From IMG/VR virus record IMGVR_UViG_3300045988_014525: 64,000 bases of DNA. One strand, 5' to 3'. Below the pieces are notes generated by a model that was given only the letters and a program-made list of their open reading frames with translations, had not been told where the DNA came from and searched no databases. Source of the DNA: a virus. Positions 21,976-61,600 of this stretch are shown piece by piece; position 1 is the stretch's first letter, and each line of letters starts with the position of its first letter. The translations under genes were made by a program, and so were the position numbers.

Positions 21976-22598
21976 TATAATCCGAGCAAATTAGAAGCTA
22001 TAATAAACTTATTAAACGGAGAATTCTCTGGAATACCTTCGTTACTATTATGACCAATAATATCAACAATACGAATGATCTTATAGTCAACACAAGTAAC
22101 AGTTTGAATAATAGTAGTATCTAACTTAGGAAGAGTATGACTAGTAGTATCAAGAGTCTTAATAACAGAAGCAGCTGCACTTTGTCCAACTTTACCAAAG
22201 ATAGTTCCTCGTTTAATACTCATAGAAAGATCTTTATCAGTATTAATAAACTTACGGATATGACCAATGGACAATTCGTTCTTACGAGTATTACAATCAA
22301 TACCGTTAAACAAATCACTAGGAGCAGCAAAAATAAAACGATTAACAGGAGTTTTATCGTTATCGTTCTCATCTGCATAATTAGCTTTAATAAGAACAGC
22401 TTTAGTATTAGCAAGACCTTTGTTATTAGTATCAATAAGGTCTACTAAAGGAGCAGTAGTTATAAGAGCAATAAGAGCATAATGCTTGCGAAGTTCAATA
22501 TGTTCAACACAAGAACTAACATAATCAAATCCAATTTCATGAACTGATTGAGGAAGTCTAAAAGTTTCTTTAGTAGAATTGTTAACTAGATTAAGCAT
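21975..22598 (-). CDS. Hypothetical protein, first gene of the minus-strand block (207 aa)
   Basis: ORF track; ATG verified at 22598-22596. Confidence 0.6.
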   Translation of the reverse strand: MLNLVNNSTKETFRLPQSVHEIGFDYVSSCVEHIELRKHYALIALITTAPLVDLIDTNNKGLANTKAVLIKANYADENDNDKTPVNRFIFAAPSDLFNGIDCNTRKNELSIGHIRKFINTDKDLSMSIKRGTIFGKVGQSAAASVIKTLDTTSHTLPKLDTTIIQTVTCVDYKIIRIVDIIGHNSNEGIPENSPFNKFIIASNLLGL

Positions 22599-22761
22599 AA
22601 CTACAATAGTTTAAATGAATACTAAATTTACCAGTACTAACAGCAGTAGTATTAACACCAGTAGTAACAGTGCAAACATAAGGATTATAATCGGATTTAG
22701 TAGTAGAATTATAGTTAAAAGTAGTTAAGTATAGGTATATTCACTTCCGTACCTTAGTGTA

Positions 22762-22854
22762 AATGCGCATACGTGCGCATGTTCTAGGTGTACGCACACG
22801 TGTACGTGCGTACATTATATACACGCGCGTATATAAGTAATGTACACGTGCGCA
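22762..22854. repeat. GC-rich alternating purine-pyrimidine palindrome cluster
   Basis: ATGCGCAT (22762-22769). ACGTGCGCA at 22770 and 22845, and ACGTGCGTA at 22803. Inverted repeat GTACGCAC-N8-GTGCGTAC (22789-22812). TATATAC-ACGCGC-GTATATA (22815-22834). Palindrome GTGCGCAC (22847-22854). Confidence 0.85.
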
Positions 22855-22862
22855 CAAATAAG

Positions 22863-22893
22863 TATCAATTATTATATGAAATATAATAATTGA
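22863..22893. repeat. Perfect 14-bp AT-only inverted repeat with 3-nt spacer
   Basis: ATCAATTATTATAT-gaa-ATATAATAATTGAT. Confidence 0.9.
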
Positions 22894-23131
22894 TAGATAT
22901 AATATATTTATAATATATTATACTAGTACCCACGCTGCATAGTACAGATGCGGTTGTCGATACTACTGTTGAAGATATTGCAGAAGGTATTGAAGTCTGT
23001 ACTGCAAAATGTATTGAAGTTTGTACTGTTGTAGATATTACTGAAACTACTGTTAGAACTACTAGTCGAGCTATTGTTGTAACTATTGTTGCAACTATTA
23101 CAATTACTATTAGAGGGAGTCTTGCTCATAT

Positions 23132-23151
23132 CCACCCCCGTAAAGGAATGT
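23132..23151 (+). repeat. GC motif copy, intergenic, left arm of an inverted pair
   Basis: ccacccccgtaaaggaatgt. Confidence 0.9.
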
Positions 23152-23220
23152 CAATTGCTTAAACTTCTTGTACTCCTATTGAATCTAGTTCTGATCTACC
23201 TGCCATTGACTGTGCTGAAA

Positions 23221-23268
23221 TTACTACTCAAGTTACTACTCAAGTTACTACTCAAATTACTACTATAT
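23221..23268 (+). repeat. Tandem 12-mer array (TTACTACTCAAG x3.5)
   Basis: Read directly from the sequence. Lies between the inverted motif pair at 23132/23301. Confidence 0.9.
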
Positions 23269-23300
23269 CTACTAGTGGAGTTACTAGCAATTACCTATTC

Positions 23301-23321
23301 ACATTCCTTTACGGGGGGTGG
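23301..23321 (-). repeat. GC motif copy, intergenic, right arm of an inverted pair
   Basis: acattcctttacggggggtgg (one extra G). Confidence 0.9.
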
Positions 23322-23347
23322 TGACAGCTAGGCTCCATCTACTATTA

Positions 23348-23412
23348 CAACTCTTTAAAGAGGTTGTTCTCGTAGAGAATGAACTCTTGCTATTGCAGAG
23401 AGAGTTCTAGAT
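23348..23412 (+). repeat. Dispersed ~65-bp direct repeat, copy 1 (contains TTCTC-GTA-GAGAA)
   Basis: CAACTCTTTAAAGAGGTTGTTCTCGTAGAGAATGAACTCTTGCTATTGCAGAGAGAGTTCTAGAT. Also contains the 12-bp palindrome CTCTTTAAAGAG. Confidence 0.8.
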
Positions 23413-23485
23413 ATTGCAAATTGAATTAAAACTAGTACTGAATTAGATATTGATTATACTGTTGATTATACTATTGCAAGAGGTG

Positions 23486-23551
23486 CTGCTCTTTTTGAAA
23501 GAAGTTTCTCGAAGAGAATTATTCTTTCATTTTGTCAGAGAGGTGCTAGAG
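23486..23551 (+). repeat. Dispersed ~65-bp direct repeat, copy 2
   Basis: CTGCTCTTTTTGAAAGAAGTTTCTCGAAGAGAATTATTCTTTCATTTTGTCAGAGAGGTGCTAGAG. Confidence 0.75.
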
Positions 23552-23635
23552 TTATTAGAGTTGCTATTTGTATAAGGAGTAGAGGAAGTACTAAAATTTA
23601 GCGTAAAGATGATACTAGAGGAATTAATAAAGGAA

Positions 23636-23671
23636 GTAATAGAGTTAGTAATAGAGTTAGTGATAGAGTTG
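23636..23671 (+). repeat. Tandem 12-mer array (GTAATAGAGTTA x3) followed by an A/T tract
   Basis: Read directly from the sequence. Followed by CTAGAAAAAATAAAATAAAATTTTTA (23675-23700). Confidence 0.9.
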
Positions 23672-23760
23672 CTGCTAGAAAAAATAAAATAAAATTTTTA
23701 GCGAGTGTGTTGTTATGATCGCGCAGCTAATGTTACTGAAACAATTTAGAAACAAGTTCA

Positions 23761-23824
23761 TGTTGTTTAAAGATCTGTTCTCGTAGAGAATATATCTTTC
23801 TATTGTAAAAGGAGATTCTAAGAG
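23761..23824 (+). repeat. Dispersed ~65-bp direct repeat, copy 3
   Basis: TGTTGTTTAAAGATCTGTTCTCGTAGAGAATATATCTTTCTATTGTAAAAGGAGATTCTAAGAG. Confidence 0.8.
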
Positions 23825-23825
23825 A

Positions 23826-23873
23826 GATAAAGTTAGTGATAAAGTTAATGATAAAGTTAATGATAAAGTTTCT
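23826..23873 (+). repeat. Tandem 12-mer array (GATAAAGTTAAT x4) followed by the same A/T tract
   Basis: Read directly from the sequence. Followed by CTAGAAAATAAAATAAAATTTTTG (23875-23898). Confidence 0.9.
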
Positions 23874-23972
23874 ACTAGAAAATAAAATAAAATTTTTGTA
23901 GTGCGTAAATTTAAGTGGCTACGGCTCCATACCAATACCCCCGCCCATCCAACTACTTATTGAACTCCCCCT

Positions 23973-24000
23973 GTCAGACCGAATGACCTTAAACATATTG
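23973..24000 (+). promoter_or_regulatory. 28-bp palindrome-containing element, degenerate copy (GTCAGACCGAATGACCTTAAACATATTG)
   Basis: Matches 24 of 28 positions of the 24579 and 24610 copies. Lies 34 nt upstream of the ATG at 24034. Confidence 0.6.
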
Positions 24001-24033
24001 CTGTTAATATTATTAATTAAATTATTAATCATT

Positions 24034-24396
24034 ATGAAAGATGTAAGGTTTATCTTATGGTTATCATTGTTTCTAGTAGGTGCAATGACTGCTATTGTTG
24101 TCTCATGTGTTGATACTAGTGCTGATAGTGCTAGTCCAACTACTGCTAGTAGCTATGTTATTCCTGATTACATAGATGCTACTAGATCATTATCATTGGG
24201 TGAAATACATAGTATTACTACGTATCTTATCAATGGCGATGATTTTGCTACTGTTGTTCTTACTGATGGTACTGAGTGTTATTGCGATCAAGCTATTGCT
24301 CGTGATCTTCGTGATGCTATTGATGGAGCTAATGATAAGGAGTTTGAACTGTGGACGAATAACGATAATGAACATGAGATTGTATGTATTAATTGA
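24034..24396 (+). CDS. Putative secreted lipoprotein (120 aa)
   Basis: The track ORF 23983..24396 begins inside the regulatory repeat. The internal ATG at 24034 gives MKDVRFILWLSLFLVGAMTAIVVSC|VDTSADS (signal peptide, Cys, acidic residues). Confidence 0.5.
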   Translation: MKDVRFILWLSLFLVGAMTAIVVSCVDTSADSASPTTASSYVIPDYIDATRSLSLGEIHSITTYLINGDDFATVVLTDGTECYCDQAIARDLRDAIDGANDKEFELWTNNDNEHEIVCIN

Positions 24397-24400
24397 ACGG

Positions 24401-24431
24401 TTGACATTGTTACGTGGTGTAGCAATGTCAA
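24401..24431. promoter_or_regulatory. Inverted repeat TTGACATTG-N13-CAATGTCAA
   Basis: 9-bp perfect arms just after the stop at 24396. Shares the TTGACATT word with the 28-bp elements. Confidence 0.6.
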
Positions 24432-24578
24432 TCTTATATATACTAATGGGTGTGATCAAATATTCACAAACATACGATTGTTCCGATCTGATACTGTTAC
24501 TAAGAATACTCAAAGGATTCGCTATATTCAAGAGTGATGCAGAGGATTACTTAGGATTGTAAACTTAACAACGATACA

Positions 24579-24606
24579 GTCAAACCGATTGACATTAAAC
24601 ATATTG
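24579..24606 (+). promoter_or_regulatory. 28-bp element GTCAA-ACCGA-TTGAC-ATTAAACATATTG, copy 2
   Basis: Identical to the copy at 24610-24637, with a tandem period of 31 bp. Contains the palindrome GTCAA-N5-TTGAC. Confidence 0.7.
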
Positions 24607-24609
24607 AGT

Positions 24610-24637
24610 GTCAAACCGATTGACATTAAACATATTG
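24610..24637 (+). promoter_or_regulatory. 28-bp element, copy 3
   Basis: Identical to the 24579-24606 copy. Lies 38 nt upstream of the ATG at 24675. Confidence 0.7.
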
Positions 24638-24674: not shown

Positions 24675-25328
24675 ATGAGTAAAGAAAAAGAAACTGTTGT
24701 TAGTGAAGCCGTAGTAGCTAATAACGCTGTTGAAGCCACTGAAGCCACTGTTACAGAAGCTACTAATGAAACTACTAAAGTAGCTGAAGATGCTCCTACT
24801 GCCGAACTACTACCATTGTCGGCTTATTGGGGTAAGGATGCAGATACTGTTACAGACCTTATGTTAGGTCGTAGCGACGTTACTAATCATGCTAATTGCA
24901 TTATTACTAATGTTGTTGACCGTGATAGTGACAATGGTTTTATGACCATTGTTGTTTCTAAAGGTCTGCCACAGTATGTTCTTAATGCCGATACTGGTGC
25001 TTATGAGATGAGTACTACTCGTAATATCTTTACCAGTCGCATTCAGATTGCAGCCATATTAAAAGGTATGAACGAGACAGTGCTCGCCAAGATTGTCGAG
25101 ACAGCACCGTTCATGGTTGTCGTATCGGTATTGGAAGGTGCTCGTATTTCCGTGATGTCAAGACTGCTCGCTGCTGGTGAGCAATACATCAATCCGTATG
25201 CGTCTAAAGCACCGTCTGAAGTTCGTGTTACCGAACATGATCGTATCGAGTATTTCCCATACGAGCTTAAACTTGGCAACAAGTTCACCGCTTTGGAGAA
25301 GATACAGCTTGCAATGATGTTCAAGTAG
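24675..25328 (+). CDS. Hypothetical early protein, compositional outlier (217 aa)
   Basis: ORF track; ATG verified. It is the first substantial plus-strand gene. Its 3' half is clearly GC-richer than the rest of the window. Confidence 0.65.
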   Translation: MSKEKETVVSEAVVANNAVEATEATVTEATNETTKVAEDAPTAELLPLSAYWGKDADTVTDLMLGRSDVTNHANCIITNVVDRDSDNGFMTIVVSKGLPQYVLNADTGAYEMSTTRNIFTSRIQIAAILKGMNETVLAKIVETAPFMVVVSVLEGARISVMSRLLAAGEQYINPYASKAPSEVRVTEHDRIEYFPYELKLGNKFTALEKIQLAMMFK

Positions 25329-25552: not shown

Positions 25553-26434
25553 ATGTACACTACTAAAGACATCAAGTCGATAACTGTCCAATCAGTCCAT
25601 CTTATAATCATTCGTATGAATGATAATAAGAGCTATATAATAGATGCTCAAGAGCTTGTTGATATAATTAATAAGGAAATATACTTGAAAAAGTGTAGAA
25701 AATCTAGAGTTAGTGCTAGAGTAAGTGACGATCTAAAGGCTAGATTAGATGGCTATGAGAGTGAAATAAGAGGTAGAATGAGTAAATCTAAGAGTAAAAG
25801 TAAGAGTAATAGTGAACTTAGGAGCAAGTTTAGTGCTGATGAACTAGATACTATTGATAAAATTGTAGATGAAATAGAGAAGTTTAAAGAGATTATTGGA
25901 GGTAAGTGTGACAGAGGTAGTGATTTAGGTGCTGCCGAAGCCGCTCAACTTTCCTCTAATCAAGCTACTCAACTTCCTACTCAAGTAGTTAGCGCCCCTT
26001 GTTCTCCCTTAGAGTCTAAAGTCTCCGACTTTATCTCTAACTCTCTTTTATCCAATCCTATCAACAGTCCCAGTCCAACTGATAACTCAATTGACAAGCC
26101 TATTGTCATTAATACTCCTATTGATACTCCTATTGATACTCCTATTGATACTCCTACTATCTCTGATTGTATTAACACTATTAACACTGACGTTAACACT
26201 ATTAACACTGGCAACAATAGTTCTAATAGTTATTATTGTAAGATTGATAATAGTATTAGTAGCTCTCGTTGCAATAATGATAATCCTAGTATCTCCGATA
26301 CTACTCATATCAAAACAGCCAACAGTAGTTCTAAGATAGTCAACAGTAGTTCTAATAGTACTAATAGGTTTAATAGGTTTAAGAGATTCATTAAGACAAT
26401 TAAGTCTATATTTAAAACTACTCGTTACAACTGA
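25553..26434 (+). CDS. Low-complexity S/N/T/I-rich protein with PIDT and KS repeats (293 aa)
   Basis: ORF track; ATG verified. Contains the DNA 12-mer CCTATTGATACT x3.5 (PIDTPIDTPIDTP) and KSKSKSKS. That it is coding is plausible but not secure. Confidence 0.45.
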   Translation: MYTTKDIKSITVQSVHLIIIRMNDNKSYIIDAQELVDIINKEIYLKKCRKSRVSARVSDDLKARLDGYESEIRGRMSKSKSKSKSNSELRSKFSADELDTIDKIVDEIEKFKEIIGGKCDRGSDLGAAEAAQLSSNQATQLPTQVVSAPCSPLESKVSDFISNSLLSNPINSPSPTDNSIDKPIVINTPIDTPIDTPIDTPTISDCINTINTDVNTINTGNNSSNSYYCKIDNSISSSRCNNDNPSISDTTHIKTANSSSKIVNSSSNSTNRFNRFKRFIKTIKSIFKTTRYN

Positions 26435-51567: not shown

Positions 51568-51587
51568 CCACCCCCGTAAAGGAATGG
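51568..51587 (+). repeat. GC motif copy, intergenic, left arm of a hairpin
   Basis: ccacccccgtaaaggaatgg. Confidence 0.9.
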
Positions 51588-51606
51588 AATTAGCTATTAA
51601 CTACTT

Positions 51607-51626
51607 CTCTTACGGGGGTGGCACAA
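51607..51626 (-). repeat. GC motif copy, intergenic, right arm of a hairpin
   Basis: ctcttacgggggtggcacaa. Confidence 0.9.
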
Positions 51627-52667: not shown

Positions 52668-55600
52668 TTAATCTTCTTCGCCAGTAATCTTATTAGCAAT
52701 GAATTGACCAAGACCACTAAACGGAGATTGACGTACTTTATAATAACTATTATTAGCACCTAAACGTTCATGTTTTCTAATTTGATTAACAACAGGAACT
52801 TGTTTAAGTAGATTAACTTTAAGTTTATTCTCTCCCGAATAAGTTCCAGATTGATATAGAAGATCATCAGCGTCACCAGTGAATATATAAGAACAACAAG
52901 CACCTAGAAGTTTAAGATTGTCATTAGCAATACTAAATGCTGCAACAGGTTGACTATATAGTTTCTGTCCTTCATTCATCATACCCCACGGATTATATTG
53001 AATAGTTTCAGACATAAGTCTATCTGCACTATAAAGAACATAATCTGCAATTTGAGTAGATTCATCATCATCGTCTAGCATTAGTTTACCAACTACAAAT
53101 AAAGCAACTGCTTTAGTAATAGCAATCCATTCTCCTAAACATCTACGAAGATTAGCTTTATCATATTCGGGAAGAACATTGTAATAAGTTACAAAGTTTC
53201 CGAAAAAGTCAACGTAGCCTTTAGCAATACCTTGAAGAGTACGAACGGCTTCTAGTTCATTGGAGTTATTTAACTCGTAGTACTTCCTTACGGGGAAAGT
53301 TATAAACTCTGCTAATGATACATAACTACCTTTATTAATAGTTTCACGAGTTTCATTATAAACTCCATCAAAATGTCCAAGACGATAACCAAAACGTTTT
53401 TGGAATCCCGGAACAAGATGTTTATGGAATTGCATTAATAAAGCTCCCCACCAAGATTGTTGAAGAGTGTTAGCACCGATTTTATCATAGATACCATGAA
53501 TATGATGATTAACAGTTAGAACTTTGTTACGGAAGTCAGCAATATCTGCATTAGTAAGAGGACTATCTTCTTTAAGTATTGCAACTCCATTACTTAATGT
53601 AAGTTGACTACGGAAAGTAGGAAGTTTGTCAAACTTAGAACGTTGTTCTTTACTATCTTCTTTATATTGTGCTACAAACTTATCTCGAACTTCTTTAGAT
53701 TGAGTACGTAAGAAGTTAGTTACCATATCTTGTTTGAATCTATTAAACTGTTCTTTAACAGCAAATGATTCTTTAATCTTATTACGATATTCATTATAAG
53801 TATTAACAAGATCGGGATTAACTTCATTAAGAACTTTGATCAAAGAGTTCTCACGAAGATTCTGAGTAAATGTTTCATATGATATAACAGCAGCTTTACC
53901 ATTTTCATCAACAGAAACTCTATGAGAGTTTAACATTGCTAACAAAGTAGTATTCTGCATATAATGTTCACCAGCACTTTGTTGAATAAACAATAAATCT
54001 TCTAGTTTACCAAGAGGATTACTACCTTTACCATAAGTTTCAGTAGCCATATCAGATTCTAGAATATTGAACAATCTAATAATAGCATTAGTTTCGCTAT
54101 TAGTAGTTTCGCTATAAGCATCTGCAAAATAACTACCAATAGACAAAGCATATTCGTTTTCAGCTTTACGGAAATCACTATATTTAAAGTATTGTCCGGC
54201 TGCCATCTCCATCTGAATCTGAGTCTTACCATAAAGAACATTAGCAATACCACCAGTAAGATTTAACATCATAAATTTACTAGATACCATATTACGAAGA
54301 ACACGAGATACTTTAGAACGAGTACCTTCATCTAATTCAAACTCATTGAATATAAGTTTGCGAACTTGACTTTCAAAGTGTTTAGTAATATTAGCATTCT
54401 CATTTTTAAAAGTACGAAGTTCTTCTTTACCTGTAATACGACTAAGAAGTCTATTGCTAGATATTTCGTTATTAGGAGCACGTTTGATGAAATCCATATT
54501 ACGAAGTTGATTGATAGTAATCTTAGCTAGACGAGAAGCATCATTACGAGAATTAAATAGATACATTTGATCTATAAAACTATTAAGTCTTTCGAGAACA
54601 TTAGGATTATTTCTTTCCTTAGTCTCTTCCATTCTTTGTCTATGAAGTTCTCTATTAGTAGCTAATGTTTCTTCTACATACTTAATATATTCTTCTTTAG
54701 TTTCACCTTCTTGTTTATCACGAATAGGTAAAGGTTTAACTTGTGAAAGACTATGTAACATAGGAGCATTACTGAATCTCTTATATAGATTAAATTCTAT
54801 ATCAGATTTATTAGGAGCATCATACCAACCATGACTACGTTTAAAGTCTTGCCAGTAATCTTTAAAACCTTTATCTTCTTTCTCGATTGCTTGATTAGGA
54901 AGATAGCCTTTATTGATATAAGCACGACTACGTTTATCTTTAACTAAACCATCAAGTAAGTTACTTACAGAAGAATATAATTGTTGCTGATAATTATTCA
55001 TTGCATAATACTTATCATTAGTATAACGATCAGTACTAGGTTGAAGTTTATTATCAACAAACTTAGGATTATAATATTTATCTTTTACTTTAGTTTCTAA
55101 CCATTTAGATTTAGGACTATATTCCATATAACGAGCTTCATCCTTAACAACTCGTTGTCTCCATATCATTAATGGTTCATATTCATTAGTAAGAGGATTG
55201 AATACATGATTTTCATTATACCATTTCTCAAAACCTTCTTTACCTAATTGATTAGCTTTAACATACTCGTTTTCATAATAAGGAGTATTACGCCATTCAA
55301 TACGTTCATTTATCCAAGCTTGTGATTCACGATCTTTTTCAACTAAACGATTTTTAGCAGCAAGAAGCATTTGCTCTTCGTGCTTTTTAATATTCTCAAT
55401 TTGAGTAGGATTAAAACGAGTACCATCTATAATACCGTTCTTATCGTACTTACCTCTAGACATAGTTAAGATATATCCAGTAATAGGATTACCACGTTTA
55501 GTTTGCTTATATACATTATTAAGTTCTCGAATAAATTCTGGACTAAGACGATAGTTAGTATTAGCATCTAACCAAGCAACTGCTTCACGATAAGTCTCAG

Positions 55601-58600
55601 AATCACTAGGATATTGTAGATTAGCAATAGCTTGCTTATATCGTTCTTCAAATGCTTGTTTTGGCTTAGTCTCTTTATATTTAGTATTAAGCTGCTTCCT
55701 ACGAGTAAAATAGTTATTAACTGCATTAGCTTCATGATAGTTTTCACGATAATTACCAAGTTCATCAATAGTAGATCTCATATCTTGTATTTCAGAAAGA
55801 ATCTCTTCAAGACGTGCAGCATTCTGAGGAGTAAGAGTACTATAATCATTATCAGTCATAGTACTAAGTATTTCTCCTTCTTCTTGCATTAACTTCTTTA
55901 ATTTAATATAAGTTTTAGGATATTTATCTAATATCTTATTTAAATAAAAGTAATCTTGATACATGTCTTTAACATATTGACGTTCTACATTATCAATTAA
56001 GAACTTTTCAAGAGCATCGGCAGCTTTCTTATATTCAATACCATTACGACCGTTTTCATCTTTAATCTGAGCAAGTTTAAGATTATCTTTTAAAGTTTGC
56101 AAAGTATCTAAGAATGTCTGATTATAAGGAAGCAATAAGTTTCCGTTTTCATCTAATATATCATTAAGAGATACATTAACACCATTCTTATTTGCTTCTT
56201 CAATAATCTTAGATACTTCAGCAGTAAATGCAATCTTCTTATCACGAGCATCTATCTCAGCTTTACGAAGTTCTTGCATCATCTTCTTTAATACTATTTG
56301 CACAATAGGAATATGAGTTTCTTGACTATCGGCTAAATAATACTGGAAGAAATTCTCATCTTCAATAGCAGCAGTAATTTCTAACATTCCTGATTTAATA
56401 CGAGGATCGTTAGTAAGACTACTAATATAAGTATCGAAGTACATTTTAGTACTACGTTTAAGAGTATTATCTAAAGCACTAATACGAGTAAACTTGTCTT
56501 TAAGTTGCTTCAATACTTCATTAGTTCTACGCATTCCATCTATCTCTTCTTGTGATTCAGCAATAGCCATTGCTTCATCTATATTATAAGGTTGAAGAGA
56601 TTCAATTATAGAGTAGTCACTAATGAAACGATTAATATCATCGAGAAACATTTCATAACGAGTACGAAGTGATTCATCTTTCAACATCATATCGAATAAC
56701 TTCTTATTAGTAATACTAATGTTCTCAAGAATCTTTCCATCTTTATTTTCAATACGAACAAAGTTATGAACATCAAACAAGAAATCATCAATACGACGAT
56801 TAGTATAACCATTGATAATTTTAAGAGCTTGCTCTCTCATATTATCGTTAAGTTTACTAGCATTATTAGCTCGAAGATCAAGAGTGTTGAAAGAACGAAA
56901 AGCATCGGTAAGAGCATCTTCTTGAATATTAGCATTATTACGTTCAATAGATTCAATTACTTTAGCTATATAATCATTAATCTCTTTATCGTTATCAATA
57001 AGAGCAGATTCGAGGACATCTTCATTTTGGAATGCTTCTTCTGTTTGAACACGAAGTATATTATTGTTAGAGAACTTATCTAATAACTGATTTTGCTTAA
57101 CAACTTGTTCAAGTACAGATCGTCTAGGATAAACAAGTTTAAGCATTCCATTCTCATTGATTTCTTTATTAACAAGATAATCATGAGTCGTTCTAATACT
57201 TTTAGAAGTTACTCTTCCTAAATTAGTTACTACATAATTAGTTCCTTCTTTATTATAACGAAACATTCCTCCCGAACGTAAACCAGTATTATCTATCACA
57301 GATTGAAGAACAGGAACAAATGCAATACCATTAGTCTTAACATCTGATAGAGTTTGATTAATACTAGTTTTAAGTTGAGTGTAATAAGGCGATTCAGAAT
57401 TATCACTACGTTTAGTTCTAAGTTGAACTTCATTAGCTTCTATCTTAGCATTAGCAATACGTTCACGTTCAGCAACTAAATCTGCATTATTACGGTTAGA
57501 AATAGCAACGCGAATATTCTCGAAGTTGGTATTAGGAACAACAACAGTATAATCTTTTATTCCTGCCTCTTCTAGTTGATTCATAGTATCTATAATAGTT
57601 TTATTATCAGAACTAGAGATAACATATTTATTAGCAGGTGATAAGTTAGATGATTCCTTTACGGGGGAAGTCAAAACTATCGCATTAAGAACATCTGCTA
57701 TTCCTAAACTAGAACCTTCATTAGTTATACTAGGAATAATTAAGAACTTACGAGATTTACTATTAATACCTTTGCTTACTTGTGTAATGGCAGGAATAGA
57801 ATTATAATAAAAATCTAATGATTTATTAATAGCATCAACAGGAAGAAAACGATTATTTTCTAGATTAATACTAACATCAGCAATCTCATTATCTTCTAGC
57901 TTATTAAGAGGAATAAGATCAACAGTCGAACCATGATTAATAACTTTAAACAAAGTAGATTCATTACTATTTTGATACATATTAGTTTTAATATAGCTTT
58001 TAGTAACTGGGTCTTTTTCACTACCAGTAACTATTCTTCTAAGTCTAGCTTCTTTAATACTAATAGTTGCTGCGCCTAATTGATTAAAAGTAATTCTAGG
58101 AGAATTCTTATACTTCTTGTTTTCAAACGAATAAACATCAGGAAGATTAGGATTACTTCTAAAGAATATATCTTTTAATTCATCTATTGCTTGTCCTCTA
58201 TCTAACGTATCATAAGAACTAGTTTCTTCAATTGTATTCTTTATAAGGTTATCAATAGCTTTCTCAGAATCTAATATAATTCCAGTTCCAGTAGACAATC
58301 CATTATTAGAATCAATACCGTTATCTTCTGTATAAAGAAGTTCAGCAGGAATAATTTTACTAACGCTACCTCCTTTAAAAGAATAACCTTCTACTACAAT
58401 ACCATAACGAACTAAATCCATAGCTGTTAATTTAACAAATGGATTATCACTATTCCAAGCATTACGAAACATTTGATATTGAGCTTCGGTAGATATAGTA
58501 CTATCAATAATAGTTATTTGATCTTTACTATTACGACGACCACGATATTCAACATTAAGATTCTTAAATAGATTATTATCAGAAGTAACATTTTGCATAA

Positions 58601-61600
58601 TAGCAACTTTATTAGCAGGAGATAACTTCATGAACTTTTCTACATTAGCTTCGGATAAATCAGAAACATCAAACTTACCTACAATATCTACATAACCGTA
58701 TAGTCTTGCACGAATATCTTCTTGACTAGAAAGAAGATTAAGATTATAACTAGGAATAAACTCGTTAGTGCTTTTAGTCATAAAACGGTTAGTGTTGACA
58801 AAAGTAGACTGAGCTTGTCCTAAGTTGATAATGAAGCTTTCTAGTTTTTGAATAGTCTTTAATGAGTTAACATCAAACGCATTAATAAGAGATTTAAAAG
58901 CAGGCGTTTGAGTTTTAAATATACCGCTATCTTGAATAATCATTTTAGTTGCTATACAACTATATTTTAGTTGATAGTATAAAGAAGGATATGCAGATTC
59001 TGATTTATCGCTATTTACTTCATTGATATTTCTAAATGAAGTTTTAGGATAAATAGCACCTATTAGATAACTTCCATAATCAGAAGTAAGAACAGGATTA
59101 GTAGATGTTTTACCAGAATTAAAATTCTTATCTTTTAGTTCTCGAATTCTTTTAAGAACTTGATCGATTTCATTAACTGATTTTCCAGCACCAAACTTAT
59201 CACTAGTAATAACTCTCATGTTACTATTGACTTGATCAGCTATATTCTTATAATGTTCAAATACATTAAGAACTTTAAGTTGAGCGATTAAATCTTCAAC
59301 GTTTTCAACTTTATCTATTCCATTTTTAAATGAATCATTAGAGTATTTCTTTAATACTTCAACTGGCATTCCTTTATCAAGAAACTCATTCTCATTTATT
59401 CCAATTGATTCAATATATTTTTTTAAACTATCTAGAGTATCTGTCTTCTTAGCAGTTCGTCCATTTGCTTTAGCAATTGCCATATATAAATCTCGACGAA
59501 CAGTAGTAATAGGACTAAAACCTTGTTCGCCGAATACATTATCATTGGCATTTTGTCTATTTATTAACTCAGTAACAATAGGCTGATTAACAAATCGAAT
59601 AGAAGTTTCATAATTAGCACCACAGTTAACGATAGACTTATAGACATCAAATGTATATAAATCTACATTAGGAACACCACCTTCTTTAACACCGTCAAGA
59701 ATCAAAGCAGTAGTTTCAGAAGAATAAGGAGTAAGTAAACGATCATCTATATTAAGATTGTCATAACTCCATCCTAACATATTATGATTAACAGTAATAG
59801 TATTATCTTCTCGTTTAACATTCTTCTTACCAAATCGTTTATTTAATACAGTAAGTTTCTTCTTAGCTTCTGCTTCATTAGCATAACTATAAGTAAATTT
59901 AAAACCACCATATAAACCTTCAATAGTAGTCTTAGCTTTATTACTAATAGAAACAAAATTATCGTGATTAACTGAAATAGCTTTAAGACGAGCACCGGAC
60001 ATATTGGCATCACGATACCAATTCTGAGCAATAACAGAATTGATGTTACGATAGACTTCACTAAGATTACCGAATACAGTAGTCTTAGCATTCTTAATAT
60101 CTTCAAAGTTACTAGAAGATAAATTCTCACCAATAGATACTGGAAGATTCATTATATTAATAAATGTATCTACTATTTTATTGTTACGAGCATCACGAGT
60201 ATTTTGTTGAGCTACTGTTAATTGACTAAATTCTTCAAGAGACATAGCTCCTACTATTTCAGCTCTTGCTTGAATAGTTTGTTCTAATCTAGCTCTACGA
60301 GTTTCATCAGCATAATCAATAGCTAGTTGTTCAGCGTTATCTTTTACATTTTGATAAAATTCTCTTTGTTCATTAATAACAGATTGAATATTACGATACT
60401 GTTGTGCAAACTTAGCAACATATTCATCATTAGCATATTCACTTTCATAAAAGTTCATCTTACTTACAATAGCATCTACTCTTTCACCAAACTTTAATTC
60501 TTTTGATTTAAAAGTAATAGTAAGATTATCTTTTACTTCTCTTGGAAGTACCGCCCATGTTTCGTCTGTTTCAGCTATTAAATCTCTAACTTGGTCAGTT
60601 AAGAATTTATCATATTCTTCATTAGCTTTACGAACAGTTTCTCTCGCAGCTTTACGAGCTTCTTTAAATTCTTCTTTAGTAAATTCAGAACTAGTAGCTT
60701 TACGAGTTTCTTTATCTATTAAAGAATTTATATAACCAATATATCTGCGATAAGTACTTACTTCATCTTCTCCATCTATATATTCGACCTTATTAGGTTT
60801 ACCATTTCTATCGAAATAAGCAGCATGATAAATACCATAAATACTATCAATATCAAAGTCAGCACCAGTTTGCAATACCCAATCATCTGGAACAACAATA
60901 GTAGAACCTTGAGTTTCATCAAGAAGTCCTACTACTTTCATTATACCAATAGATTGTTTACCTTCTGTTGGAATACGATAACCAATCATAGTATCGAGTC
61001 CTGCTTTCTGTAAATCTTCAAGTGTTACTTCTTTAATAAGATTACCTTCTGCATCATAAGTATTATATGCTTTTACTTGCCATTTAGGAAGAAGTATTTC
61101 TATTATCTGAGAACCGTCTTTATGGAAATTAAGTTTACGACCTAACTTATAACCATGCTTATCTTCAAATTTAGATTGAGTAAAGTCTCCTATCTTACCT
61201 TTAAGAGATTCTCCTAATTCAGTCATACCAATATTAACAACTTGACTAGCGTGGAATCCTTTAAGAGTTTGACGAGTAATATTATTAGTAAATATACTAT
61301 TAACAATACTTTCTAATTTAGAACGAACTAGATTACTCCAAGCAGGCATATAAGGAAGACCTGTCTCTGGATTAATCTCAGCATATTTACGATAATTACT
61401 ATCAAGTCCTCTACGAGTAAGTTCGTCTTTAATAAGTGCAATAAACTTATTATTATCAATAGCTACTGTTTCACCATCATAAGTTATTTCACCTTTGTTA
61501 TTTATTTCAACTCCAATACGAGAAGCAGCATCATTAAAACTTTCTTGAATATTAGCAGTAAAACAATCAAAGAAATCTTTAATAAGACTTTGACCTTCCG

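What the first reader, a model, noticed from the sequence alone, without database searches (positions are those of the whole stretch)
22599..24033. A 1.4-kb gene-free, repeat-dense zone between the divergent late and early blocks: candidate replication origin or early-transcription hub
No credible ORF exists here. The track ORFs are low-complexity Leu- or Ser/Asn-rich shadows, and one 48-codon open frame lacks a start. The zone stacks several elements: a GC-rich palindrome island, a perfect AT inverted repeat, the GC-motif inverted pair, three ~65-bp dispersed repeats, three 12-mer tandem arrays each followed by an A/T tract, and a palindrome-containing 28-bp element. Iteron-like repeats, an AT-rich unwinding element and bent A-tracts together form the classical architecture of an origin. 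The position between divergent transcription units also suits early promoters. An alternative reading is a decayed repetitive coding gene. The 12-nt periodicity equals four codons, and the neighbouring 25553..26434 ORF has similar 12-mer repeats.
Basis: partly seen in the sequence, partly recalled or inferred. Interest (0 to 1): 0.7.

Follow-up and report, generated by a model that had tools for sequence, protein, structure and literature searches.

The report
Non-coding control zone of a crAss-like phage
The 1.4-kb gap is a real gene-free control region between the two divergent gene blocks of a gut crAss-like phage. It has two highly conserved ends, likely promoters plus an unusual structure-prone DNA core, and a fast-changing repeat-filled middle that looks like decayed gene material, not the binding repeats of a replication origin.

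Summary
The window is a crAss-like phage related to crAss002. The zone separates the leftward structural block from the rightward early and replication block.

About 25 close and 42 distant relatives split the zone into three layers.

- **L (22599-22913)** is the least variable stretch (pi 0.012). It holds an exact Bacteroides-type -7 box for the leftward operon, 94 bp of four perfect alternating purine-pyrimidine tracts, and two AT-only hairpins.
- **M (22914-23927)** is hypervariable (pi up to 0.15). Its arrays gain and lose 12-nt units, and one roughly 195-bp unit is present or absent. It has the codon periodicity of the rightward genes but no start codon, and stops or a frameshift in 14 of 22 haplotypes. 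I read it as decayed repeat-rich early genes, not iterons.
- **R (23928-24033)** is conserved. Its 28-bp element recurs in tandem before the next gene and is nearly invariant across the clade, so it is a candidate early promoter or operator.

GC skew follows the coding strand and says nothing about an origin. No DnaA boxes are present. An origin in the L core cannot be excluded. The "GC-motif pair" belongs to a genome-wide 22-copy phage-specific motif of unknown function.

The parts
22591..22740 (-). Start-less 49-codon open frame plus its stop. Codon usage is gene-like. The frame overlaps the ATG of the 207-aa gene and spans the candidate leftward promoter, so it is probably not translated.
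   Evidence: Six-frame translation. Codon log-odds 0.78 against a gene mean of 0.76. No ATG, GTG or TTG start. Nearly invariant in relatives.
22673..22680 (-). Exact Bacteroides-type -7 promoter box (TATGTTTG on the minus strand), about 75 nt upstream of the ATG of the first leftward gene.
   Evidence: Pattern scan. The homologous position in crAss002 reads TATACTTG, a 7 of 8 match, inside the only stretch of L that aligns between the two clades. Its function is inferred.
22763..22856 (.). Alternating purine-pyrimidine (RY) island: four perfect tracts of 20, 28, 20 and 17 nt made of CG, CA/TG and TA steps. It is prone to Z-DNA and cruciform formation.
   Evidence: single-stranded DNA fold z = -5.8. 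Same tracts at the same offset in about 25 relatives. All substitutions seen are transitions, which keep the alternation. A homologous island sits in a different gene-free gap in the crAss002 clade.
22858..22921 (.). Two AT-only hairpin palindromes, with stems of 15 bp and 11 bp and 3-nt loops. This is among the lowest-GC stretches of the zone.
   Evidence: Invariant in relatives. Three independent contigs end at 22895-22901.
22914..23324 (+). M1: a start-less rightward open frame of about 136 codons. Codon usage is gene-like ((NNT)n) and it contains 12- and 24-nt arrays. I read it as a decayed ORF.
   Evidence: Codon score 0.3-0.9. One TAA in the window. Stops or a frameshift in 14 of 22 haplotypes, at three sites, and no start codon in any haplotype. 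No homologues outside this lineage among 5.8 billion proteins or in INPHARED.
23105..23347 (.). Inverted pair of the dispersed GC motif (cores 23135-23148 on + and 23304-23317 on -), flanking the ACTACTCAAGTT array.
   Evidence: Same orientation in all relatives, with no inversion seen.
23341..23927 (+). M2: three tandem units, A 23341-23500, B 23501-23728 and C 23729-23927. Each has a 5-bp hairpin box (TTCTCGWAGAGAAT) and a 12-mer array. B and C end in an A/T tract, and A ends only in a weak T5/A3 stretch. Hypervariable.
   Evidence: pi = 0.154. Unit C is absent from most relatives, and arrays are replaced or resized by 12-nt steps. RNA fold z = +0.15, so not a structured RNA. Rightward codon-like frame with four stops.
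23928..24033 (+). R: conserved promoter-proximal block. It has a C-rich, G-poor stretch, the 28-bp element at 23973-24000, and a 33-nt AT-rich leader up to the ATG at 24034.
   Evidence: pi = 0.018. This is the part of the zone that aligns consistently with the crAss002 clade.
24579..24637 (+). Two exact tandem copies of the 28-bp element, 37 nt upstream of the ATG at 24675. They lie outside the reported interval but belong to the same system.
   Evidence: Same arrangement in crAss002 and about 50 IMG/VR contigs.

Best explanation
The zone is the non-coding control region between the leftward structural/late block and the rightward early and replication block of a crAss-like phage near Jahgtovirus (crAss002). 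It works in three layers.

**L (22599-22913)** is a strongly constrained cis-acting core.
- It carries the promoter of the leftward operon, a host-type -7 box.
- It also carries a compact structure-prone module: 94 bp of alternating purine-pyrimidine DNA and two AT-only hairpins.
- Between divergent transcription units this module would absorb negative supercoiling by flipping to Z-DNA or extruding cruciforms. That step is inferred from the twin-domain supercoiling model and is not shown here.
- L is the only credible site in the zone for unwinding-dependent initiation, whether of transcription or of replication.

**M (22914-23927)** is evolutionary debris.
- It consists of repeat-rich early ORFs that lost their start and now drift as minisatellites.
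- It keeps the codon periodicity and strand composition of the rightward genes.
- It is probably still transcribed rightward as a leader or non-coding RNA (inferred).

**R (23928-24033)** carries the start signals of the early genes. The 28-bp element GTCARACCGAWTGACNTTAAACATATTG is a candidate early promoter or operator, and it is repeated in tandem before the second gene.

Shown here: the anatomy, the conservation pattern and the loss of coding. Inferred: promoter activity, supercoil-driven transitions and transcription of M.
For: - **Context.** Synteny with crAss002 places terminase and portal to the left, and small early genes followed by helicase, polymerase and primase to the right.
- **Diversity across 18 haplotypes**: left gene 0.027, L 0.012, M1 0.050, M2 0.154, R 0.018.
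- **L.** It stays about 98% identical in a relative whose flanking protein is only 80% identical. The RY island is statistically extreme, and the L core containing it is strongly structure-prone (z = -5.8).
- **A relocatable module.** An island built on the same plan, and probably homologous, next to a (TA)n tract, recurs in another gene-free gap of the crAss002 clade. This argues for a functional module that can move.
- **Leftward promoter.** An exact -7 box lies at 22673-22680 on the minus strand, at a position conserved in crAss002.
- **28-bp element.** There are 3 copies where 0 are expected. All are on the + strand and end 33-37 nt before the ATGs. The core TAAACATATTG is invariant in 133 distinct contexts from genomes whose flanking protein is only 45% identical.
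- **M is not coding now.** It has a gene-like codon score, no start codon, and stops or a frameshift in 14 of 22 haplotypes. No protein family matches it. The A/T tracts carry indels that are not multiples of 3.
- **Control.** The neighbouring repeat-rich 293-aa gene stays intact in relatives.
- **M varies.** Indels come in 12-nt steps and a whole unit is gained or lost.
Against: - There are no transcription data, so no start site is mapped.
- The 28-bp element matches neither the Bacteroides -33/-7 consensus nor sigma-70. It could be a 5'-UTR RNA element or an operator and not a promoter.
- In phi14:2 the virion-polymerase early promoters showed no common motif (10.1101/2020.03.07.982082).
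- If M were pure debris, deletion should have removed it. Yet an array-rich middle persists in both clades, which hints at a sequence-independent function.
- No intact homologue of the presumed ancestral ORF was found.
- Z-DNA or cruciform formation is only predicted from sequence.
- Substitutions in the whole L part are transitions, so preservation of the alternation is not by itself evidence of selection.
Confidence: 0.55

Rival explanations
1. Replication origin of the classical type. The 12-mer arrays would be iterons bound by a phage initiator, the AT palindromes would be the unwinding element, and the A-tracts would bend the DNA.
For: An AT-rich, palindromic, easily melted segment lies next to repeats. 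The cumulative GC-skew minimum falls at the zone. A preprint predicted origins by Ori-Finder at the start of the forward strand in the prototypic crAssphage (PMC10983915).
Against: - The arrays are five or more unrelated 12-mers. They are shorter than typical 17-22-bp iterons.
- They are replaced by other sequences in relatives that are 87-96% identical, and they vary in copy number.
- All array periods are multiples of 3 and sit in codon-like frames.
- No initiator gene is adjacent. The replication genes start more than 6 kb away.
- There are no DnaA boxes.
- The skew flips again at 52.6 kb, together with gene orientation, and coding-strand skew is equal in all three blocks.
Confidence: 0.07
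2. The origin, or a structure-dependent initiation site, lies in the conserved L core only (RY island plus AT hairpins). The arrays are irrelevant filler. Supercoil-driven Z-DNA or cruciform formation next to the AT tract opens the duplex for the replisome or for the virion RNA polymerase.
For: - L is the most conserved stretch.
- The RY plus AT module is conserved as a unit but lies at different places in the two clades, always in gene-free DNA.
- Five hairpin-forming palindromes fall within 176 nt.
- The crAss virion polymerase was assayed on denatured DNA in phi14:2 (10.1101/2020.03.07.982082).
- N4 virion polymerase uses supercoil-extruded hairpin promoters. This is my own knowledge; N4 is reviewed in PMC4496689.
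Against: There is no direct evidence. The module is not next to replication genes. The crAss002 clade lacks it in the equivalent zone and has 10-nt phased TTCACA repeats there instead. The conservation could equally reflect ordinary promoter or operator function.
Confidence: 0.2
3. The middle part is a functional long non-coding early RNA, like the highly transcribed gene-free regions next to the early genes of phi14:2. It would act through bulk properties (a purine-rich, repetitive sponge or decoy) and not through a fixed fold.
For: - phi14:2 has a 1.7-kb gene-free region transcribed rightward from the earliest time point (10.1101/2020.03.07.982082).
- M has the strand composition of rightward transcripts, with GC skew up to +0.7.
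- An array-rich middle persists in both clades despite complete sequence turnover.
Against: There is no predicted structure (z = +0.15) and no conserved sequence. There is no similarity to the phi14:2 region, which lacks 12-mer arrays. No expression data exist for this clade.
Confidence: 0.3
4. Packaging initiation (pac) site of a headful-packaging phage, located at the boundary between L and M.
For: - crAss002 packages by the headful mechanism from a pac site (PMC8042965).
- Its record starts 366 nt upstream of gp1, at the equivalent L/M boundary.
- Three independent contigs of the window's lineage end at 22895-22901.
- pac regions of other phages contain repeats and bent DNA (own knowledge).
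Against: Contig ends at an AT-only palindrome are a common assembly artefact. The paper does not give the pac position. The terminase genes are more than 4 kb away.
Confidence: 0.1
5. The open frames in M encode real small repeat proteins that are started by a non-canonical mechanism.
For: Codon scores are as high as in real genes. Eight of 22 haplotypes keep the 22914 frame fully open. The array peptides (SNRV, TTQV) resemble segments of the intact 293-aa early protein.
Against: No start codon exists in any haplotype. There are three independent nonsense sites and a frameshift. Frames differ between relatives, and the hairpin boxes contain in-frame stops. There are no homologues.
Confidence: 0.04

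Closest known systems
Gene-free zone between gp81 and gp1 of Bacteroides phage crAss002 (MN917146, spanning the record origin) and of cr107_1
   Same: Same position between the same divergent blocks. Same three-layer plan of a conserved left part, variable arrays and a conserved right part. The right part has an A/T tract, a GCTCC motif, a C-rich stretch and the 28-bp element, followed by a tandem pair of elements before the second gene.
   Different: Only about 150-250 nt on the right and about 70 nt on the left can be aligned. The crAss002 clade has no RY island here. It has 10-nt phased TTCACA repeats instead, and its RY island sits 1.7-2.0 kb further right in a second gene-free gap. Nothing is annotated in either record.
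Long intergenic regions of Cellulophaga phage phi14:2 that are transcribed as abundant early non-coding RNAs (Drobysheva et al., 10.1101/2020.03.07.982082)
   Same: A crAss-like phage with a gene-free stretch longer than 1 kb beside the early genes, where small ORF calls were withdrawn.
   Different: No sequence similarity, no 12-mer arrays and no RY island. Transcription of the present zone is untested.
Iteron-type origins (phage lambda ori; plasmids P1, pSC101 and R6K)
   Same: Direct repeats lie next to an AT-rich, easily melted segment.
   Different: The repeats here are heterogeneous 12-mers, hypervariable, with a period that is a multiple of 3. They are not linked to an initiator gene, and no DnaA boxes are present.
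Supercoil-dependent hairpin promoters of coliphage N4 virion RNA polymerase (reviewed in PMC4496689)
   Same: A phage that injects a virion RNA polymerase. Short inverted repeats sit in or near candidate early promoters: GTCAA-N5-TTGAC inside the 28-bp element, and a cluster of palindromes in L.
   Different: The N4 enzyme is T7-like, whereas the crAss enzyme is a two-barrel polymerase. The N4 hairpins have 5-7-bp stems with 3-nt loops at defined promoter positions. Here the stems are 4-5 bp with 5-8-nt loops, and no start sites are known.
Uptake-signal-type dispersed motifs (Haemophilus USS, Neisseria DUS), as an analogy for the GC motif only
   Same: A motif of 14-20 nt at about 1 per 3 kb, on both strands, mostly inside genes in preferred reading frames, with occasional inverted pairs between genes.
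   Different: It is phage-specific and absent from bacterial genomes beyond chance. No uptake system is implied, and the function is unknown.

Membership tests
Iteron-type replication origin | Three or more direct repeats of one 17-22-bp sequence that serve as initiator binding sites | tested here: not met
   The arrays are 12-mers of five or more different sequences.
Iteron-type replication origin | Iteron sequence conserved among close relatives, since it must co-evolve with its initiator | tested here: not met
   Arrays are replaced or resized in relatives that are 87-96% identical. M2 has pi = 0.154, the highest of any segment.
Iteron-type replication origin | Adjacent AT-rich unwinding element | tested here: met
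   AT-only palindromes at 22858-22921, with 23% GC.
Iteron-type replication origin | Initiator gene in cis, and/or DnaA boxes | tested here: not met
   The flanking genes are small proteins with no PHROG family match. The replication genes are more than 6 kb away by synteny. No DnaA box lies in the zone.
Iteron-type replication origin | Replication starts here (marker frequency, autonomous replication) | not testable with these tools
   GC skew is confounded with gene orientation: -0.133, +0.143 and -0.127 in the three blocks.
Divergent promoter / control region | Lies between the first genes of two divergently oriented blocks | tested here: met
Divergent promoter / control region | Conserved motifs at a fixed distance upstream of the first genes | tested here: met
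   The 28-bp element ends 33-37 nt before the ATGs at 24034 and 24675, and the same pattern holds in relatives (30-34 or about 76 nt). An exact -7 box lies about 75 nt before the leftward ATG.
Divergent promoter / control region | Mapped transcription start sites | not testable with these tools
   No transcript data exist for this clade in the searched literature.
Bacteroides primary-sigma promoter (-33 TTTG / -7 TAnnTTTG) | Match of the 28-bp element to the -7 and -33 consensus | tested here: not met
   No exact -7 box occurs on the + strand in the zone, only 7 of 8 matches at the ends of the A/T tracts (sequence inspection).
Pseudogene / decayed ORF | Codon periodicity of the genome's genes, but disrupted by stops or frameshifts that differ between strains | tested here: met
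   The control gene stays intact.
Pseudogene / decayed ORF | An intact homologue exists elsewhere | tested here: not met
   Only three same-lineage singleton gene calls with forced starts were found. There is no INPHARED hit. Array similarity to the 293-aa gene is weak.
Structured non-coding RNA | Folding energy beyond shuffles, covariation, or an Rfam match | tested here: not met
   z = +0.15 for 23340-23935. There is no credible Rfam match; the only hits were far below gathering scores. Only arm A of the GC-pair stem varies, without compensation.
Z-DNA-forming sequence | Alternating purine-pyrimidine tracts of about 12 bp or more that contain CG and CA/TG steps | tested here: met
   Four tracts of 17-28 bp.
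Z-DNA-forming sequence | Demonstrated B-to-Z transition under supercoiling | not testable with these tools
   This needs chemical or antibody probing.
Minisatellite / VNTR | Tandem arrays with copy-number polymorphism between strains | tested here: met
   Indels of 12, 24, 36 and 48 nt dominate, and a unit of about 190-209 bp is gained or lost.

The most novel reading that the evidence does not exclude
The RY-plus-AT hairpin module and the 28-bp element together form the long-sought recognition system for early initiation in this crAss clade. The module would be a relocatable, supercoil-triggered DNA-melting device that gives the injected virion RNA polymerase (or the replisome) a single-stranded entry point. 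The 28-bp element, with its internal GTCA-N7-TGAC repeat, would be the specific early promoter. The codon-like minisatellites downstream would be transcribed as an abundant early non-coding RNA.
Probability: 0.15. Interest if true: 0.8.

Novelty: new variant of a known kind. Interest (0 to 1): 0.5.

Why it matters
crAss-like phages are the most abundant viruses of the human gut. Their cis-acting signals (early promoters for the injected giant RNA polymerase, origins and pac sites) are essentially unknown. In phi14:2 no common early-promoter motif could be found.

This analysis supplies concrete sequences that can be tested in a cultured relative, crAss002:
- a 28-bp element conserved across the clade in front of the first two early genes;
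- an ultra-conserved structure-prone purine-pyrimidine/AT module that has moved between gene-free gaps;
- a hypervariable repeat region that could serve as a strain marker.

It also warns against reading GC skew or short tandem repeats as evidence of an origin in genomes whose skew follows gene orientation.

Tried and rejected
- **Known RNAs.** The tRNA search found nothing, and Rfam returned only five sub-threshold hits (four microRNA families on the purine-pyrimidine tracts and RsaA).
- **Direct terminal repeat or physical end.** Rejected, because crAss002 is a headful packager. A pac site remains a weak rival.
- **Alternative genetic code** (TGA or TAG read through) to rescue the frames. 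Rejected: neighbouring genes end in TGA, the in-frame stops include TAA, TAG and TGA, and they are polymorphic.
- **Invertible segment between the GC-motif pair.** No inversion was found in about 25 relatives.
- **Conserved GC-clamped hairpin around the A/T tracts.** By inspection of relatives' sequences, variants break the pairs without compensation, so I dropped it.
- **Structured RNA for the units.** z = +0.15.
- **DGR-like diversification** (the third codon position is the most conserved: 23, 28 and 5 variable sites by position). This is explained by the (NNT)n composition together with register shifts of the arrays. I looked for no template repeat or reverse transcriptase.
- **Homology of the start-less frame to known proteins.** None found.
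- **phi14:2 non-coding regions as homologues.** No shared architecture.
- **Host origin of the GC motif.** The 19-mer occurs only 3 times in 185,579 genomes, which is the chance level.
- **Literature.** Searches for the motifs, and for origin or start-site data in Crassvirales, found nothing relevant.
Full report
**What the window is.** Megablast of 20000-27000 hits only Bacteroides phage crAss002 and cr107_1 (Crassvirales, Intestiviridae, Jahgtovirus) at about 75% identity.
- By synteny, the minus-strand block ending at 22598 corresponds to crAss002 gp1-gp8 and onward. These are hypothetical proteins, a PD-(D/E)XK exonuclease, terminase and the structural genes.
- The plus-strand block starting at 24034 corresponds to gp81 through gp34. 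These are about a dozen small proteins, then helicase, DNA polymerase, RecT, SSB, primase and ligase.
- The 3753-codon minus-strand ORF at 52668-63929 is the giant virion RNA polymerase region.
- crAss002 has an equivalent unannotated gap of about 1.1 kb that spans its record origin.

**Check of the observation.** Every listed element is present.
- Nothing in the zone matches a tRNA, and no Rfam family scores near its gathering threshold.
- ORFs that have a start codon are short shadow frames.
- The "GC-rich palindrome island" at 22763-22856 is more specific than described. It is four perfect alternating purine-pyrimidine tracts of 20, 28, 20 and 17 nt. These are the only such runs of 16 nt or more in 64 kb, and the local alternation is 7 sd above the window mean.
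- As single-stranded DNA, 22750-22925 folds into five hairpins with z = -5.8. Two of them are AT-only hairpins with 15- and 11-bp stems.
- The "GC-motif inverted pair" forms a long stem with z = -4.05. Its core, CCCCCGTAAAGGAA, occurs 22 times in the window at two mismatches or fewer, against 0.06 expected. The copies lie on both strands and mostly inside genes. It is therefore not a zone-specific element.
- The three "65-bp repeats" are the heads of three tandem units of roughly 160-230 bp, A to C.

**Relatives.** I collected three sets.
- Eight IMG/VR loci came from a search with the flanking 207-aa protein.
- Seventy-one loci came from the pattern ATGACNTTAAACATATTG.
- Twenty metagenome loci came from the same protein.

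Together they give about 25 genomes of the window's own lineage, with flanking protein 80-100% identical. They also give 42 distinct zones of a crAss002-like clade, with flanking protein about 45% identical.

**Layer L, 22599-22913.**
- Among 18 distinct haplotypes, nucleotide diversity is 0.012. That is lower than in the adjacent gene (0.027) and far lower than in the first rightward gene (0.10).
- L stays about 98% identical even in a contig whose flanking protein is only 80% identical.
- The four purine-pyrimidine tracts sit at the same offset in all relatives. Every substitution in them is a transition that keeps the alternation. However, all substitutions in L are transitions, so this alone is not proof of selection.
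- The minus strand carries an exact Bacteroides -7 box (TATGTTTG) at 22673-22680, about 75 nt before the ATG of the leftward gene. crAss002 has TATACTTG at the matching place, inside the only alignable stretch of L.
- A 49-codon start-less minus frame at 22594-22740 has gene-like codon usage. It spans this presumed promoter and has no start codon.
- The crAss002 clade lacks the island in this zone. It carries TTCACAnnnn repeated 3-4 times at 10-nt spacing instead.
- That clade does have an island of the same plan, and probably homologous (for example ATATACGTGCGTGTACGCGTGCGTATA and GTACACGTGCG), next to a (TA)15 tract. It sits 1.7-2.0 kb to the right, in a second gene-free gap between gp79 and gp78.
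- The purine-pyrimidine plus AT module is therefore a conserved unit that can relocate and always lies in gene-free, array-rich DNA.

**Layer M, 22914-23927.**
- Diversity rises to 0.050 in M1 and 0.154 in M2.
- Indels are mostly 12, 24, 36 or 48 nt. Unit C (23729-23927) is present only in the window and about six of the roughly 25 relatives. Arrays are replaced outright: AGTAATAGAGTT in the window, AGAAAGTATTAG or GTGCTAGAG in others.
- A codon-usage log-odds model trained on 20 long genes of the window scores one rightward frame as gene-like. It gives 0.3-0.9 over 22914-23324 and 0.2-0.6 over 23360-23720. True genes average 0.76 with a 5th percentile of 0.29, and off-frame windows average -1.76.
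- The 22914 frame nevertheless has no ATG, GTG or TTG start in any of 22 haplotypes. It carries premature stops at three different sites, or a frameshift, in 14 of them.
- The hairpin boxes contain in-frame stops, the frames differ between units, and the A/T tracts carry indels that are not multiples of 3.
- A search of 5.8 billion proteins found only three singleton gene calls from the same lineage, with forced starts. INPHARED gave nothing.
- As a control, the neighbouring repeat-rich 293-aa gene (25553-26434) stays intact in relatives at 70-86% identity. Only one relative has a stop and one has a split alignment.
- Its peptide repeats (SRVSARVSD, TQLPTQVV) weakly resemble the array frames of the zone (SNRVSNRVSD, TTQVTTQV).
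- As RNA, 23340-23935 is no more structured than shuffled sequence (z = +0.15).
- The best reading is decayed, repeat-rich early coding sequence that now behaves as minisatellites.
- The crAss002 clade also keeps a variable, purine-rich, array-filled middle with unrelated sequence (periods 9, 12, 13, 27-36). Some sequence-independent role, such as a spacer, leader or non-coding RNA, therefore cannot be dismissed.

**Layer R, 23928-24033, and beyond.**
- Diversity falls back to 0.018.
- This is the part of the zone that aligns consistently with the distant clade. It comprises the A/T tract, a GCTCC motif, a C-rich stretch and the 28-bp element.
- The element occurs three times in the window, against zero expected. 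All three copies are on the + strand. Their ends lie 33 nt before the ATG at 24034 and 68 and 37 nt before the ATG at 24675.
- The same one-plus-tandem-pair arrangement holds in crAss002 and about 50 contigs. The core TGACnTTAAACATATTG is nearly invariant over 133 distinct contexts.
- In INPHARED the element is found only in crAss002 and cr107_1, and it is unannotated there.
- It fits neither the Bacteroides -33/-7 consensus nor sigma-70. It contains a short inverted repeat, GTCA-N7-TGAC.
- I treat it as a candidate early promoter or operator. A 5'-UTR RNA element is an alternative.

**Origin hypothesis.**
- The skew minimum at the zone coincides with the switch of gene orientation. A second flip at 52.6 kb also coincides with a switch. 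Mean skew is -0.133, +0.143 and -0.127 in the three blocks, so the coding-strand skew is the same everywhere. Skew therefore gives no independent information.
- There are no DnaA boxes, and no initiator gene is adjacent.
- The arrays fail the tests for iterons: uniform sequence, typical length and conservation.
- What remains possible is an unwinding or initiation function of the conserved L core.
- A pac function is also conceivable. crAss002 packages by headful from a pac site, and its record starts at the equivalent L/M boundary. Three independent contigs end at 22895-22901. Breaks at AT palindromes are, however, a common assembly artefact.

**Comparison with known systems.**
- The nearest described parallel is the pair of long intergenic regions of phi14:2 that are transcribed early and abundantly as RNAs of unknown function. 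The 1.7-kb gene-free stretch exists in the record but shares no architecture with this zone.
- The searchable literature held no origin, start-site or motif data for this clade.

**Novelty.** The zone is a new variant of a known kind, a phage intergenic control region. It has three features that seem worth experiments:
- the 28-bp element conserved across the clade;
- the relocatable purine-pyrimidine/AT module;
- the genome-wide GC motif.

Noticed in passing
window, 22 sites (for example 18553+, 20791+, 23135+, 23304-, 27870+, 35873+, 44362-, 51571+, 57654-): The dispersed motif [cca/ctt]CCCCCGTAAAGGAAtg occurs 22 times at two mismatches or fewer, against 0.06 expected. It lies on both strands regardless of gene orientation and mostly inside genes, with a frame preference: [ST]PVKE on the sense strand and S[FL]TGE on the antisense strand. 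crAss002 has 14 copies in 55 kb, as CCCCC[GA]TAAAGGAG. The 19-mer is at chance level in 185,579 bacterial genomes, so the motif is phage-specific. Its function is unknown, and its distribution resembles uptake-signal-type motifs.
   Followed up: partly
window 51571-51618; crAss002 MN917146 64740-64787: A second inverted pair of the GC motif lies 20 nt apart in an intergenic stretch near the end of the rightward block. An equivalent pair exists in crAss002 between gp34 and gp35. It may be a bidirectional terminator-like hairpin at the convergent junction.
   Followed up: partly
L002 3899-4842 (MN917146 89898-90841): crAss002 has a second unannotated gene-free gap of 944 nt between gp79 and gp78. 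It contains (TA)15, a purine-pyrimidine island similar to and probably homologous with the one in the window's zone, a GCTAAGGCTCC motif, and 9- and 12-mer arrays (TAGATAATAGAG). In the window the corresponding position is occupied by the repeat-rich 293-aa ORF.
   Followed up: partly
distant-clade zones, positions about 160-200 from the leftward ATG (for example L049 170-208): TTCACAnnnn is repeated 3-4 times at exact 10-nt spacing inside a left part that is more than 90% conserved. This looks more like phased protein-binding sites than anything in the window's own zone.
   Followed up: no
window 22895-22901: Three independent contigs (L005, L008, L100) end within 7 nt of each other at the AT palindrome. 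The crAss002 record starts at the equivalent boundary. This is either an assembly artefact at a hairpin or a hint of a physical end or pac site.
   Followed up: partly
window 24034-24396: The first rightward gene encodes a 120-aa protein with a lipoprotein-like signal peptide (MKDVRFILWLSLFLVGAMTAIVVSC). It is the most variable gene nearby (pi 0.10), with two clearly different N-terminal alleles among relatives.
   Followed up: no
window 25553-26434: This 293-aa early ORF is full of 6-, 9- and 12-nt arrays (SKSKSKSK, IDTP x4, INT repeats). It is kept intact but evolves fast, at 70-86% identity with length changes. It shows that real early genes of this phage are built from the same kind of repeats as the zone.
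   Followed up: partly
window 23147-24627: Five of the seven TTGACATT octamers in the 64-kb window fall in this 1.5-kb stretch. One is next to GC-motif arm A, two form the 16-bp-stem terminator-like hairpin at 24399-24433 after the first gene, and one lies in each of the tandem 28-bp elements. This may be a shared operator half-site.
   Followed up: no
distant-clade loci, just downstream of the tandem 28-bp elements (for example L002 rc 1400-1470): A conserved leader of about 76 nt lies before the second early gene. It has a (TG)n run and an inverted repeat (CCATTGTG...CACATTGG). The window's lineage, whose leader is 37 nt, lacks it.
   Followed up: no
L096 and L099, between the first and second purine-pyrimidine tracts: A 12-nt tandem duplication (AGGTGTACCCGC) lies inside the otherwise invariant island. 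Even here the indel is 12 nt long.
   Followed up: no
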